Source of the DNA: a virus
Taxonomy: Duplodnaviria > Heunggongvirae > Uroviricota > Caudoviricetes
IMG/VR virus record: IMGVR_UViG_3300037042_007115
Length of the DNA: 64,000 nt
Direction: 5' to 3' (one strand)
The notes under the pieces: generated by a model
The model's database searches: none
Seen by the model: only the letters and a program-made list of their open reading frames with translations
What the model was told of the DNA's origin: nothing
Shown here: positions 52,006 through 54,107 of the stretch, one piece after another
How the letters are laid out: every line of letters starts with the position of its first letter
How positions within the stretch are numbered: the stretch's first letter is position 1
Program-made: the position numbers and the translations under genes

Positions 52006-52022
52006 TAGAAAGGAATATATAC
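52006..52022 (+). promoter_or_regulatory. BRE/TATA promoter for the ncRNA-Ro60 operon
   Basis: TAGAAAGG purine-rich BRE-like element then AATATATA; expected start near 52043-52046 coincides with the first RNA stem. Confidence 0.6.
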
Positions 52023-52042: not shown

Positions 52043-52120
52043 TACAGGGTTGCGTAGAGTACGGTTACTTCTCTACAACTTGGATTGAACATCACACCGT
52101 GCTCGTTTGATCTCCCTGTA
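52043..52120 (+). ncRNA. Y-RNA-like RNA 1
   Basis: TACAGGG/CCCTGTA terminal stem; GAGTACGGT/ACCGTGCTC inner stem; conserved GGGTTGCGTAGA, TTACTTC and TTGATCTCCC motifs; upstream of Ro60. Confidence 0.8.
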
Positions 52121-52125
52121 TTCTT

Positions 52126-52159
52126 ACTCCTATACTTGGGTTCAACTCCCAATAGGGGT
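52126..52159 (+). ncRNA. tRNA-like minihelix (acceptor stem plus T-arm)
   Basis: ACTCCTA/TAGGGGT 7 bp; 3-nt linker; TTGGG-TTCAACT-CCCAA T-arm. Confidence 0.55.
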
Positions 52160-52274: not shown

Positions 52275-52365
52275 TTTAGGGTTGCGTAGAATACAGTTAC
52301 TTCGTGTTCTACATGTATTGATCTAACTGGTCGATATTCAACTGTATTCGATTGATCTCCCTAAG
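52275..52365 (+). ncRNA. Y-RNA-like RNA 2
   Basis: TTTAGGG/CCCTAAG terminal stem; GAATACAGTT/AACTGTATTC perfect 10 bp; same conserved motifs with compensatory changes versus RNA 1. Confidence 0.8.
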
Positions 52366-52386: not shown

Positions 52387-52515
52387 GGGGACATGGGGTA
52401 GTGGTTATCCCGCTAAAATTTCCGCTGTCGATTGATCTCCCTTTATCGGGTTGCGTAGATAGCGGTTACTTCGGCTTCAGATCGAGAGACCCAGGTTCGA
52501 CTCCTGGTGTCCCCA
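52387..52515 (+). tRNA. tRNA-like RNA with UCA anticodon and a 57-nt insert (52415-52471) in the anticodon stem that is a circularly permuted Y-RNA stem
   Basis: Acceptor GGGGACA/TGTCCCC+A73; D-arm GGG-TAGTGGTTAT-CCC; anticodon stem CT^CGG/TCGAG with loop CTTCAGA; T-arm CCAGG-TTCGACT-CCTGG; U8, A14, G18G19, A21 and U33 all present. Confidence 0.8.
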
Positions 52516-52536: not shown

Positions 52537-52559
52537 AACCGGTTGCGAATTCTCCGGTT
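52537..52559 (+). promoter_or_regulatory. Mini hairpin in the Ro60 5' leader carrying fragments of the Y-RNA motif
   Basis: AACCGG-TTGCGAATTCT-CCGGTT, 15 nt before ATG 52575. Confidence 0.45.
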
Positions 52560-52574: not shown

Positions 52575-54107
52575 ATGTCAAAATTAAACAAGAAAGCTAG
52601 CGAGGGCGAGAAACTTCTTTCTCACCCAGACCTTACTCTTAATAAAGAGAATGGGGTCGCCTTTAAGACCGGGCCAAAGGTTGAGCTTATGCTTAGAATT
52701 GTAAGTTCCCTTATCTCTGAGGCTGGTGCTTATACCCCCGGGAAAGAGATGGATAAAGAACTGCTTATTGCTATTGAGAAAGCAATGTGTGAGGACCCAA
52801 AGTACATCTTGCAGTTGGCAGTATTTGCCCGTAACAAACTATATCTGCGGAGTGCCACTACTGTATTGCTTGGTGAATATGCTTTAAGTGCAGGGGTAAG
52901 TAAAGTACCAGAGGCACGGAAGTACTTTTTCAATGCACTCCAGAGAGCAGATGATATTACTGAGCTTTTGGGCTATATCTTAACTCGCAAGGGCCAGATA
53001 GATGTCCCATTTAAGGGTAAAATCCCGCATGTGGTTAAACACAGTGTAGCGGAGGCCTTAAAGAAGTTTGATGCCTACCAGTTGGCTAAATACAATCGCT
53101 CAGATGTAGAGGTTACTCTTCGGGATGCTATCTTCCTTACCCACCCCCAGCCGGATAATGATGAGCAGGCAAAGTTATTCGCTAGTATTATTGATGGAAC
53201 TCTTGCCCCACCAGATACATGGGAAGTTCACCTCTCCAGAGATGGTAGTAGCAAGGAGACCTGGGAAGGTATTATCCCCAAGATGGGTTACATGGCTACG
53301 CTTAGGAACCTCAGGAACATGCTTGAGTCTAAAGTCAACATGGTGCCAGTATTGAGGAAACTCTCTGACCCTTCAGAAGTATTGAAATCTAAGCAGTTCC
53401 CATACCGGTTCCTTAGTGCCTACAAGGAGCTTGAGGGTGTAAGTGGCGCCAGTAGAACTTTAGCTGCACTTTCAGATGCACTTGATCTGAGTGCCCAGAA
53501 TGTGCCAGACTTTCCCGGTATTAGCTTCATCACCTGTGACACCAGCGGGACCATGAACGCCACCCTCTCGAGTAAATCAAAGATGACCCGGAAAGAGGTC
53601 GGCTGTTTATTCGGTGCCATGGTGCATAAGAAAGCTGAAGACTCAATAGTAGCAGCTTTTGCCTCAGAGATAGCCCCGGTAGAACTCAGCTATAGGGATT
53701 CAACCTTCACAAACATGAAGAAGCTGTTTGAGGCCAATACTCACGGGAGTGCTACTAACGCTTACAAAGTAATGGACTGGTTAATTGAGGAGAAGCACTT
53801 TGTAGATAGGATTATTCTATTTAGCGATATGCTGTGTTATTCCTCTAGCACAAGAATGGCTTGGATTGCTGTTAACAATGACCAGAATCTCTACCTGGGT
53901 CTGAAGAAATATCGGCAGCAGATCAACCCCAACGTGTTTGTCTACACCTTCGACCTCTCCAGCCACGGCTCAGTACAGTTCCCCAAGGACGACCCAAAGG
54001 TCTGTGTCTTAGGGGGGTTTAGTGATAAGATCTTAAATTTCATCCCCATGTTTGAAAGATCCCGGGCAGACATGCTAGCTGAGATAGAATCCATTGTCCC
54101 TGAGTAG
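52575..54107 (+). CDS. ro60: Ro60/TROVE-domain RNA-binding protein with C-terminal vWA domain
   Basis: LQLAVFARNKLYLRS..QRADDITELLGY..KFDAYQLAKYNR..LRDAIFLTHP..TWEVHLS..MGYMATLRNLRN..QFPYRFLSAY; vWA CDTSGTM; IILFSDM. Confidence 0.95.
   Translation: MSKLNKKASEGEKLLSHPDLTLNKENGVAFKTGPKVELMLRIVSSLISEAGAYTPGKEMDKELLIAIEKAMCEDPKYILQLAVFARNKLYLRSATTVLLGEYALSAGVSKVPEARKYFFNALQRADDITELLGYILTRKGQIDVPFKGKIPHVVKHSVAEALKKFDAYQLAKYNRSDVEVTLRDAIFLTHPQPDNDEQAKLFASIIDGTLAPPDTWEVHLSRDGSSKETWEGIIPKMGYMATLRNLRNMLESKVNMVPVLRKLSDPSEVLKSKQFPYRFLSAYKELEGVSGASRTLAALSDALDLSAQNVPDFPGISFITCDTSGTMNATLSSKSKMTRKEVGCLFGAMVHKKAEDSIVAAFASEIAPVELSYRDSTFTNMKKLFEANTHGSATNAYKVMDWLIEEKHFVDRIILFSDMLCYSSSTRMAWIAVNNDQNLYLGLKKYRQQINPNVFVYTFDLSSHGSVQFPKDDPKVCVLGGFSDKILNFIPMFERSRADMLAEIESIVPE

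What the first reader, a model, noticed from the sequence alone, without database searches (positions are those of the whole stretch)
52387..52515. tRNA with a circularly permuted Y-RNA domain inserted in its anticodon stem (inverse of YrlA)
Seen: removing 52415-52471 leaves a canonical 72-nt cloverleaf, GGGGACATGGGGTAGTGGTTATCCCGCT^CGGCTTCAGATCGAGAGACCCAGGTTCGACTCCTGGTGTCCCCA. The 57-nt insert has the Y-RNA 3' strand first (CCGCTGTCGATTGATCTCCC), then a TTTATC loop, then the 5' strand (GGGTTGCGTAGATAGCGGTTACTT), the reverse order of Y1 and Y2. Known: bacterial YrlA has its ends in the Ro-binding stem and a closed tRNA-like module. Here the ends are real acceptor-stem ends, so RNase P, RNase Z and CCA addition could process it. 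Inference: it is either an unspliced, possibly chargeable Ro60-tethered tRNA decoy, or a tRNA whose intron is excised as a circular Y RNA. It could be an evolutionary intermediate between tRNA and YrlA. I found no canonical BHB at either possible junction (27/28 or 28/29).
Basis: partly seen in the sequence, partly recalled or inferred. Interest (0 to 1): 0.93.

Follow-up and report, generated by a model that had tools for sequence, protein, structure and literature searches.

The report
tRNA-ordered Y RNA beside viral Ro60
Just upstream of a virus-encoded Ro60 gene lies a conserved 129-nt RNA gene with a complete tRNA cloverleaf, open acceptor ends and a Ro60-binding hairpin as a fifth arm; this is a new circular arrangement of the known tRNA-mimicking YrlA Y RNAs and is probably not a spliced tRNA.

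Summary
Window 52387-52515 has a 7-bp acceptor stem, D arm, anticodon-like arm and T arm. A Y-RNA helix is inserted between nt 27 and 28 with its two strands in reversed order. Deleting the insert gives a cloverleaf that ARAGORN calls a tRNA (anticodon UCA).

It is not chance. The next gene is a Ro60 (TROVE+vWA) gene, and two ordinary Y RNAs upstream share the same strand motifs. The same architecture sits upstream of Ro60 in about 15 other metagenomic or viral contigs, about 20 elements in all. Every helix covaries (25 of 32 pairs change on both sides; 0 of 500 shuffles reach this). The 27:43 pair and the tertiary 15:48 pair covary too.

More distant Ro60 loci carry the same modules in the published YrlA order, with a closed acceptor loop and the ends in the Ro stem. 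The element is therefore a circular permutation of YrlA. On a Ro60 tree all the tRNA-ordered loci form one nested clade, which suggests a derived state.

No bulge-helix-bulge (BHB) splice motif is conserved, and the Ro hairpin tips are stable tetraloops. The unspliced reading is therefore favoured. I found no description of this arrangement in the searchable literature. Earlier notes of this scan concern this same genome only.

The parts
52008..52022 (+). Promoter-like purine run plus TATA-like box (AATATATA at 52014-52021), 25 nt before Y1. Probable single promoter for the Y-RNA cluster and Ro60.
   Evidence: The same box (consensus about AAA-N-TTATWWATAC) lies about 25 nt upstream of the first Y RNA in L002, L004, L053, L006, L007, L054, L010, L020 and L009. 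Its function is inferred.
52047..52116 (+). Y1, an ordinary-order Y RNA (5' strand GGGTTGCGTAGA..GTTACTTC; 3' strand ..TTGATCTCCC).
   Evidence: fold.
52126..52159 (+). Acceptor-plus-T-arm minihelix after Y1.
   Evidence: Weak mascRNA-like match, 20 bits, E = 0.29. Not followed up.
52279..52361 (+). Y2, an ordinary-order Y RNA.
52387..52393 (+). Acceptor stem, 5' strand (GGGGACA).
   Evidence: Pairs 7/7 with 52508-52514. Six of the seven pairs show changes on both sides across 18-20 homologues.
52396..52411 (+). D arm (GGGT-AGTGGTTA-TCCC), preceded by U8 and G9.
   Evidence: U8, A14 and the D-loop GG are present in 17/17 homologues. The D stem covaries.
52412..52413 (+). G26 and C27. C27 pairs with G52486 (the 27:43 pair).
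   Evidence: The 27:43 pair is C-G in 10 homologues, A-U in 8 and U-A in 1. I checked this by eye on the raw sequences.
52414..52421 (+). 5' linker UAAAAUUU between the tRNA body and the Ro arm.
   Evidence: Conserved as UAAA(A)UUU-like in homologues, and in the canonical-order L010.
52422..52465 (+). Ro60-binding-type hairpin: 3'-type strand 52422-52441, loop 52442-52447, 5'-type strand 52448-52465 carrying the GCGUAG motif.
   Evidence: It has the same strand sequences as Y1 and Y2. Six of eight pairs in the 8-bp stem and all three pairs in the 3-bp tip helix show changes on both sides. RNAalifold predicts it independently. In relatives the tip loops are the tetraloops GUAA and CUUG. Ro binding itself is inferred.
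52466..52470 (+). 3' linker UUACU, containing the YrlA 'YUAY' motif.
   Evidence: UUAC or AUAC is invariant in the homologues. The motif is described in Chen 2014.
52471..52486 (+). Anticodon-like hairpin UCGG-CUUCAGA-UCGA plus G43, the homologue of the YrlA 'V' hairpin.
   Evidence: The stem covaries (UUCG/CGAA, UCUA/UAGA, UUCA/UGAA). Loops fit Y32-U33-NNN-R37. Relatives carry CUYUGGA, CUUGUAA, CUGUGGA or CUUCCAC.
52487..52507 (+). Variable loop AGAC and T arm (CCAGG-TTCGACT-CCTGG).
   Evidence: The T loop is UUCRANU in 17/17 homologues. The Levitt pair 15:48 is G:C in 15 and A:U in 2. The T stem covaries.
52508..52515 (+). Acceptor stem, 3' strand (TGTCCCC), and discriminator A. No CCA is encoded.
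52538..52558 (+). Hairpin in the Ro60 leader that holds GGTTGCG..TCTCC, a miniature of the Y motif.
   Evidence: A similar hairpin (CCGGTTGTATTCTCCGG) precedes Ro60 in L005, and CCGGTTGTCATCTCCGG does so in L002. An autoregulatory role is speculation.
52575..54107 (+). Ro60/Rsr orthologue (510 aa from the second ATG; the ORF is open from 52560).
   Evidence: Pfam TROVE, E = 1e-27, and vWA_Ro60, E = 3e-8. There are 647 homologues at E <= 1e-30.

Best explanation
The element is a Y RNA of the YrlA (tRNA-mimic) class in a new, tRNA-ordered gene arrangement. It is a complete four-arm cloverleaf with free acceptor-stem ends. A Ro60-binding hairpin is attached as a fifth arm between nt 27 and 28, at the top of the anticodon-like stem. 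It is probably co-transcribed with Y1, Y2 and the Ro60 mRNA from one upstream TATA-type promoter. It would then be released by the host's tRNA end-processing enzymes (RNase P at G52387, RNase Z after A52515, followed by CCA addition). I think it stays unspliced. The viral Ro60 ring would bind the hairpin, and the tRNA-shaped body would present a tRNA look-alike to host tRNA-binding factors, as a tether or a decoy. Shown here: the sequence anatomy, adjacency to Ro60, conservation, covariation of all helices and of two tRNA-specific contacts, homology with canonical-order YrlA, and the absence of a conserved splice motif. Inferred: Ro60 binding, the processing steps, the single-chain mature form and the biological role.
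For: 1. The next gene is Ro60. Y1 and Y2 share both strand motifs with the insert.
2. The covariance model R1 finds full-length copies upstream of Ro60 in L002-L004, L006, L007/L055, L008, L022 (two copies), L028, L038/L058, L051 (two copies), L053, L054 and L056 (two copies) at 62-156 bits. L032 carries an expanded copy at 722-949, of which R1 matches only 817-949 at 43 bits. R1 gives one hit in the 64-kb window. In whole viral records the hits above 75 bits lie only next to Ro60.
3. Covariation: 93% of cells are paired. 25 of 32 pairs change on both sides. 0 of 500 shuffles reach this. Slid controls give 31-47% paired. RNAalifold recovers the acceptor, D, Ro and T helices on its own.
4. tRNA-specific signals: 27:43 is C-G/A-U/U-A in 10/8/1 homologues. 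U8, A14, the D-loop GG and the T loop are present in 17/17. The pair 15:48 is G:C in 15 and A:U in 2.
5. Deleting the insert at the same alignment position makes ARAGORN of the 17 full-length elements a tRNA with a standard anticodon; one more gets an abnormal call with a 6-nt loop, and one (the Ro arm inside the anticodon loop) gets none. Rfam's tRNA model scores the distal L002 copy at 47 bits across its insert.
6. L010, L020, L161 and L163 carry the same modules in the YrlA order with a closed acceptor loop.
7. Precedent: in vivo, M. smegmatis YrlA, which has a 7-bp acceptor stem, is cut at the site expected for RNase P and receives CCA; in vitro, the E. coli RNase P RNA cuts it at that site (Chen 2014).
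8. The Ro hairpin tips in relatives are the tetraloops GUAA and CUUG, which fits a hairpin that stays closed.
Against: The thermodynamic minimum-energy fold of the window copy is not the cloverleaf (-49.2 against -38.2 kcal/mol). The alignment used for the pair counts was fitted to the model, which leans towards the structure. The window's Ro-strand motif is GCGUAG, not the published GNCGAA. Ro60 binding to a helix whose end is closed by a loop has not been shown for any Y RNA. The host domain is unresolved, so which processing enzymes act is an inference.
Confidence: 0.75

Rival explanations
1. It is an intron-containing tRNA. The 57-nt Y-like insert is excised (linear or circular) by a splicing endonuclease, giving a normal tRNA(UCA) and a free mini Y RNA.
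For: Removing the insert gives a perfect cloverleaf. The virus may infect archaea, which splice tRNA introns at non-canonical positions. That host assignment rests on earlier scan notes and on the TATA-like promoter box.
Against: No BHB is present. At the splice points that preserve the product, no element combines a full 4-bp central helix with both flanking helices, and the would-be central strand is the D-stem 3' strand. ARAGORN's alternative intron model (tRNA-Arg UCG) is not conserved in the relatives. The same junction exists in canonical-order YrlAs, where the Ro arm carries the RNA ends. At 57 nt the insert is also far too small to be a group I intron (own knowledge).
Confidence: 0.07
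2. It is a working, aminoacylated tRNA that decodes UGA here (CAR, ACA and other codons in relatives) while carrying a Ro60-binding arm. In other words, it is a Ro-tethered suppressor or supplementary tRNA.
For: The anticodon loops are canonical 7-nt loops with U33 and R37, in several 'isotypes'. The acceptor stem is open and 7 bp long with discriminator A. All tRNA tertiary-contact nucleotides are present.
Against: The same hairpin and CUYUGGA loop occur in closed-acceptor YrlAs and in a Y RNA without a tRNA body, neither of which can be charged (L010, L020, L163, L009). One family member has a 6-nt loop, and another has the Ro arm inside the loop (L051). TGA ends 22 of 67 mechanical ORFs, and very long ORFs are open under code 11. 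An efficient opal suppressor would therefore be costly and is not needed. Whether the ribosome tolerates a 44-nt arm at positions 27/28 is unknown.
Confidence: 0.08
3. It is a two-piece RNA. The tip loop (52442-52447) is cut, so that the mature particle holds two base-paired halves with ends like those of Y1 and Y2.
For: Y1 and Y2 begin at GGG and end at CCC, exactly the sequences flanking the loop. M. smegmatis YrlA functions as two nicked halves.
Against: The loop is a stable tetraloop (GUAA or CUUG) in relatives and has no conserved sequence. No processing signal is apparent.
Confidence: 0.05
4. It is a chance resemblance, or the decaying product of a rearrangement of tandem Y RNA genes.
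For: Tandem canonical YrlAs can mimic the order: the model's hit in L034 spans two units. L005 carries a degenerate copy.
Against: The acceptor halves within one unit covary (6 of 7 pairs). The element is kept across Ro60 proteins only 41-60% identical to each other. In the window there is no partner strand downstream.
Confidence: 0.02

Closest known systems
YrlA Y RNAs of bacteria and phages (Chen et al. 2014, PMC4201824; Wang et al. 2018, bioRxiv 10.1101/312249, PDB 6CU1)
   Same: Encoded just upstream of Ro60 on the same strand. Ro-binding 5' strand with a CGAA-like motif, followed by YUAY (UUAC here), a hairpin, a T arm, an acceptor-like stem and a D arm. tRNA tertiary nucleotides are present, including the covarying 15:48 pair. 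Homologous module by module with canonical-order copies in L010, L020 and L163.
   Different: The gene order is circularly permuted. The ends lie in a 7-bp acceptor stem instead of the Ro stem. The Ro helix is closed by a loop. The acceptor stem is open rather than capped. In this subfamily the 'V' hairpin is closed by nt 27, so it forms a 5-bp anticodon-like stem, and the Ro helix is an extra arm rather than a replacement for the anticodon stem.
[quoted passage not shown] 2014)
   Same: A Ro-bound tRNA mimic with a 7-bp acceptor stem, a tRNA-like 5' end and a CCA 3' end.
   Different: That molecule is made by nicking a closed acceptor loop, so it consists of two pieces with the Ro stem also open. 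Here a single chain would have the open acceptor end encoded in the gene.
D. radiodurans Yrn1 (Chen et al. 2000, 2013, 2014)
   Same: The D-like element, an anticodon-like arm and the T arm come in tRNA order. It is co-transcribed with a tRNA and other Y RNAs upstream of rsr.
   Different: In Yrn1 the Ro-binding helix is formed by the 5' and 3' ends and takes the place of the acceptor stem. Here both an acceptor stem and a separate Ro hairpin exist.
Circularly permuted tRNA-like genes: permuted pre-tRNAs of Cyanidioschyzon (cited in Wang 2018) and two-piece permuted tmRNA genes (own knowledge)
   Same: They are precedents for tRNA-shaped RNA genes that exist in two circular orders, probably through tandem duplication.
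   Different: Those RNAs are processed back into a standard tRNA or stay in two pieces. Neither carries a Ro60-binding module.
Archaeal tRNAs with non-canonical introns
   Same: An insert within the tRNA body, away from position 37/38.
   Different: Those introns are flanked by a BHB motif. None is conserved here.

Membership tests
YrlA-class Y RNA | Encoded within about 4 kb of a Ro60/TROVE gene, on the same strand | tested here: met
   It ends 59 nt before the Ro60 start codon, on the + strand. The same holds in the related loci.
YrlA-class Y RNA | Ro-binding 5'-strand motif GNCGAA(N)G | tested here: inconclusive
   The window has UGCGUAGA, one substitution in the CGAA core. The relative L053 has GCGAAG, and others have GCAUAG or GUGAAG. 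Binding was not tested.
YrlA-class Y RNA | Conserved T and D stem-loops with tRNA tertiary nucleotides and a covarying 15:48 pair | tested here: met
   U8, A14, GG and UUCRANU in 17/17 homologues; 15:48 is G:C in 15 and A:U in 2.
YrlA-class Y RNA | YUAY motif after the Ro 5' strand | tested here: met
   UUAC at 52466-52469, invariant as UUAC or AUAC.
YrlA-class Y RNA | 5' and 3' ends pair to form the Ro stem, and the acceptor-like stem is closed by a loop | tested here: not met
   Here the Ro helix is closed by TTTATC and the acceptor stem is open. The acceptor pairs covary within one unit.
YrlA-class Y RNA | Bound by Ro60/Rsr; modified by TruB and DusA | not testable with these tools
   Needs immunoprecipitation, EMSA and modification mapping.
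tRNA | Contiguous cloverleaf recognised by tRNA finders | tested here: not met
   On the unedited sequence Rfam's tRNA model gives 23 bits against the 29-bit threshold, and only over 52449-52515. The cloverleaf is found only after the insert is removed.
tRNA | Aminoacylation and decoding | not testable with these tools
   Indirect arguments against are given under the rival explanations.
Archaeal intron-containing tRNA | BHB (or relaxed hBH) motif at both exon-intron junctions | tested here: not met
   No element combines a paired 4-bp central helix with both flanking helices. The candidate central strand lies in the D stem.
Yrn1-type Y RNA (Deinococcus) | Ro helix formed by the RNA termini in place of the acceptor stem | tested here: not met
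   A separate 7-bp acceptor stem and an internal Ro hairpin are both present.

The most novel reading that the evidence does not exclude
The open, CCA-competent acceptor end is actually used. The RNA would be aminoacylated and would deliver or tether the viral Ro60 ring to aminoacyl-tRNA synthetases, elongation factor or ribosomes (here possibly at UGA codons), linking Ro60 RNA surveillance directly to translation. A second, separate novel reading is that the tRNA-ordered form is ancestral. In that case YrlA arose from a tRNA that first acquired a Ro-binding arm and was then permuted through a tandem dimer; I put that at about 0.15.
Probability: 0.07. Interest if true: 0.9.

Novelty: new variant of a known kind. 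Interest (0 to 1): 0.64.

Why it matters
Every description of YrlA-type Y RNAs that I could read treats them as circularly permuted tRNA mimics with a capped acceptor stem, and the partner of their tRNA-like module is still unknown. This viral clade has the same modules in true tRNA order, with a free 7-bp acceptor stem and a full anticodon-like arm.

This has three consequences. First, it shows that in this subfamily the Ro helix is an added fifth arm rather than a substitute for the anticodon stem. Second, it offers a natural single-chain substrate for asking whether a Y RNA can be processed, given CCA and charged like a tRNA. Third, it bears on the 'dimeric tRNA' model for the origin of YrlA. 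If the host is archaeal, as earlier notes and the promoter box suggest, these would also be Y RNAs of archaeal viruses, which I did not find described. In practice, annotation pipelines will miss these genes or call them intron-bearing tRNAs: Rfam has no YrlA family and calls one copy a tRNA.

Tried and rejected
- Rfam at gathering thresholds found nothing in the window. In E-value mode it gave only a sub-threshold tRNA half and a mascRNA-like minihelix. Rfam also fails to recognise canonical YrlAs, so it cannot decide membership.
- BLASTN of the locus against GenBank phages found no match.
- The single-protein scan of IMG/VR found nothing. The alignment-based scans did work.
- The genome-contig scan found only distant Ro60 genes from Actinoplanes and a cyanobacterium. 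No whole genome is held for the window.
- Two papers could not be opened.
- ARAGORN's intron mode proposes a tRNA-Arg(UCG) with a 51-nt intron and a mismatched stem. I rejected it because that pairing is absent from the relatives.
- The model's hit in L034 turned out to span two tandem canonical YrlAs, so it is not a true tRNA-ordered copy. L005 holds only a degenerate copy.
- A pattern for an insert-free tRNA with the same D arm and CUYUGGA loop found nothing in IMG/VR.
- Two IMG/VR pattern scans were mis-specified by me and returned unrelated loci. The corrected scan recovered only the three contigs already known, plus canonical-order YrlAs.
- The host domain was not settled. Atlas look-ups for ThyA and the primase-helicase say only tailed viruses. 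Ordinary tRNAs on a related contig have no introns.

Full report
**Observation.** In order it contains:
- acceptor 5' strand GGGGACA, then U8 and G9;
- D arm GGGT-AGTGGTTA-TCCC, then G26 and C27;
- linker UAAAAUUU;
- a 44-nt hairpin (52422-52465);
- linker UUACU;
- hairpin UCGG-CUUCAGA-UCGA followed by G;
- AGAC, then T arm CCAGG-TTCGACT-CCTGG;
- acceptor 3' strand TGTCCCC and discriminator A.

The first strand of the 44-nt hairpin ends in GATTGATCTCCC and the second begins with GGGTTGCGTAGA. These are the 3'-end and 5'-end motifs of two ordinary hairpin RNAs upstream, Y1 (52047-52116) and Y2 (52279-52361), but in reversed order. Deleting 52415-52471 gives 72 nt that ARAGORN draws as a canonical cloverleaf with anticodon UCA. 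On the unedited DNA, ARAGORN and Rfam see only a poor half-tRNA at 52448-52515 (23 bits, below the 29-bit threshold). RNAfold keeps the acceptor stem and the hairpin. Its minimum-energy fold (-49.2 kcal/mol) is not the cloverleaf (-38.2 kcal/mol), which is a caveat for any single-sequence argument.

**Context.** The ORF that follows (52575-54107) is a Ro60/Rsr orthologue with TROVE and Ro60-vWA domains. The window shows strand-clustered arrays of mostly small ORFs plus a few giant ones, a primase-helicase and a ThyA whose nearest clusters are from tailed viruses. No cellular genome is held for it, and its contig is 178 kb long. Earlier notes of this scan call it a virus of methanogenic archaea. 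I could test that only partly. A purine run plus a TATA-like box lies 25 nt before Y1, and it recurs at the same distance before the first Y RNA of related loci. The Ro60 gene has no Shine-Dalgarno sequence. I treat the host domain as probable, not shown.

**Relatives.** Ro60 homologues of 41-61% identity were used to fetch loci from Logan, NCBI, JGI metagenomes and IMG/VR. L002, L003 and L004 carry the same architecture directly upstream of Ro60. Their acceptor stem differs (GAGGCUG/CGGCCUC), the hairpin tip is a GUAA tetraloop, and the anticodon-like stems are compensated (UUCG/CGAA against UCUA/UAGA). A covariance model built from four sequences then found full-length copies at 62-156 bits in L006, L007/L055, L008, L022 (two copies), L028, L038/L058, L051 (two copies), L053, L054 and L056 (two copies), and second copies in L002 and L004 whose acceptor strands fall outside the model's match. 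L032 has an expanded copy (722-949), of which the model matches only 817-949 at 43 bits. The model gave one hit in the whole 64-kb window. In five whole viral records, two of them at least 96% complete with terminal repeats, the hits above 75 bits lie only next to Ro60.

**Structure support.** On the 20-sequence alignment:
- 93% of cells form pairs, and 25 of 32 pairs change on both sides;
- no shuffle out of 500 reaches the observed values, and slid controls give 31-47% paired;
- RNAalifold independently predicts the acceptor, D, Ro-stem, tip and T helices;
- the nucleotide after G26 pairs with the nucleotide after the anticodon-like hairpin (C-G in 10, A-U in 8, U-A in 1), which I also read off the raw sequences;
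- the tertiary Levitt pair 15:48 is G:C in 15 homologues and A:U in 2;
- U8, A14, the D-loop GG and the UUCRANU T loop are present in 17 of 17.

Removing the insert at the same alignment position makes ARAGORN call a tRNA with a standard anticodon in 15 of the 17 full-length elements. The labels are Gln YUG (nine), Thr UGU (three), His, Gly and the window's UCA. One more element gets an abnormal call with a 6-nt loop, and one gets none. Rfam's tRNA model scores the distal L002 copy at 47 bits straight across its 78-nt insert. L047 combines a Y-like insert at the same place with both an anticodon arm and a long variable arm. The hairpin after UUAC therefore behaves as an anticodon arm, and the Ro helix is a fifth arm.

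**Relation to YrlA.** Chen et al. 2014 and Wang et al. 2018 describe the YrlA order as Ro 5' strand, YUAY, V hairpin, T arm, closed acceptor-like stem-loop, D arm, Ro 3' strand. They call this a circularly permuted tRNA with a capped acceptor stem. More distant Ro60 loci in my set have exactly this order with the same modules as the window element. L010 has G26-A27-UAAAAU, UUAC, the hairpin CCA-CUCUGGA-UGG and an acceptor stem capped by GAAA. L020 has three such units, each with its own TATA-like box. L163 and L161 are further examples. The window element is thus a true circular permutation of YrlA.

Its anticodon-like hairpin is the homologue of the YrlA 'V' hairpin. The commonest loop, CUYUGGA, occurs in closed-acceptor YrlAs and even in a Y RNA without a tRNA body (L009). 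This argues that the loop serves the Y RNA rather than decoding. The window's own loop, CUUCAGA, departs from that consensus at two positions.

**Evolution.** On a Ro60 tree (33 rows, quick IQ-TREE) all loci with tRNA-ordered elements fall in one clade (SH-aLRT 92) nested among lineages with canonical YrlA. One change of state suffices. The two unscored members of that clade are L011, an upstream-truncated near-copy of the part of L032 that it overlaps, and L005, which holds a degenerate copy. Tandem canonical YrlAs exist (L034, L161), which provides the obvious duplication route to a permuted gene. A derived permutation is therefore more parsimonious than an ancestral intermediate. However, the deep branches and the root are weak, and I left out three rows with in-frame stops (L028, L038, L045).

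**Splicing.** At the splice points that would yield the cloverleaf, no element combines a 4-bp central helix with both flanking helices of a bulge-helix-bulge (BHB) motif. The candidate central strand is the 3' strand of the D stem. ARAGORN's alternative intron model is not conserved. Most tellingly, the junction between the Ro arm and the tRNA body is the same in canonical-order relatives, where the Ro arm bears the RNA termini and cannot be an intron. The tips of the Ro hairpin are stable tetraloops in relatives (GUAA, CUUG), which fits a hairpin that stays closed.

**Mechanism proposed.** One promoter drives Y1, the minihelix, Y2, the tRNA-ordered Y RNA and the Ro60 mRNA. The 7-bp acceptor stem plus T arm should be cut by RNase P and RNase Z and then receive CCA. 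In vivo, M. smegmatis YrlA is cut at the site expected for RNase P and gains CCA, and in vitro the E. coli RNase P RNA cuts it at that site. Ro60 would bind the hairpin, and the tRNA-shaped body would engage host tRNA-binding factors as a tether or a decoy. Only the anatomy, the conservation and the homology are shown here. Every biochemical step is inferred.

**Against a decoding role.** TGA ends 22 of 67 mechanical ORFs, and ORFs of up to 3186 codons are open under the standard code. Loop length and insertion site also vary within the family (L051).

**Novelty.** I ran five literature searches and read the key papers (13, 14, 38, 41, 54, 55, 63). None describes a Y RNA with an open acceptor stem encoded in tRNA order and an internal Ro hairpin. 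Two reviews by Sim and Wolin could not be opened, so an earlier mention cannot be excluded. I class the element as a new variant of a known kind. The earlier notes of this scan that I saw concern this same genome only; the look-up by sequence found no look-alike on other DNA.

Noticed in passing
window 52126-52159: A 7-bp acceptor-like stem plus a perfect T arm (a tRNA 'top half' minihelix) starts 10 nt after Y1. It gives a weak mascRNA-like match (20 bits). It may be a processing punctuation mark for the polycistronic Y-RNA transcript.
   Followed up: no
window 52538-52558; L005 about 316-340; L002 about 2952-2968: A hairpin in the Ro60 leader, CCGG..CCGG, encloses GGTTG(CG)..TCTCC, a miniature of the Y-RNA helix. 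It is conserved in related loci. Ro60 autoregulation is possible.
   Followed up: partly
window 52008-52022; for L002, L004, L006, L007, L010, L020, L053, L054: A conserved purine run plus a TATA-like box (about AAA-N-TTATWWATAC) lies about 25 nt upstream of the first Y RNA in many loci. In L020 every Y RNA unit has its own box. This resembles an archaeal BRE/TATA promoter, but it is AT-rich and ambiguous.
   Followed up: partly
L010 724-735, L020 about 1215-1226, L163, L161, L009 about 868-882: The loop CUYUGGA, on a short stem right after UUACUUC, is conserved in Y RNAs of both gene orders and in one Y RNA with no tRNA body. It is a candidate binding site for an unknown partner. The window's element has CUUCAGA instead.
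   Followed up: partly
L051 984-1113: In this variant the Ro hairpin sits inside the anticodon-like loop (closing stem AAGAC/GUCUU) rather than between nt 27 and 28.
   Followed up: no
L032 722-949: A tRNA-ordered element in which roughly 100 extra nucleotides lie between the two Ro-helix strands. They may hold a further embedded hairpin RNA.
   Followed up: no
L047 739-884: A class-II-like tRNA shape (loop CUUAAAA and a long variable arm) with a Y-like insert between the D arm and the anticodon stem, in a locus whose Ro60 is only about 29% identical to the window's. Its acceptor stem is imperfect.
   Followed up: no
L028 and L038/L058, 1501-3104: The Ro60 match in these loci contains 12-13 in-frame stops when translated straight through, although the tblastn identity is 57-58%. 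This suggests a frameshift or an intervening sequence. The L038/L058 record is a virus genome estimated 96% complete.
   Followed up: no
L034 935-1180; L161 8500-8846 (minus strand): Tandem canonical YrlA units lie head to tail. A covariance model of the tRNA-ordered form gives a false hit across the unit boundary. Such arrays are a plausible intermediate for the permutation.
   Followed up: partly
L056 544-870: This complete 75-kb virus genome carries, besides two tRNA-ordered elements, Y RNAs that have a T arm and a short closed stem but no D arm.
   Followed up: no
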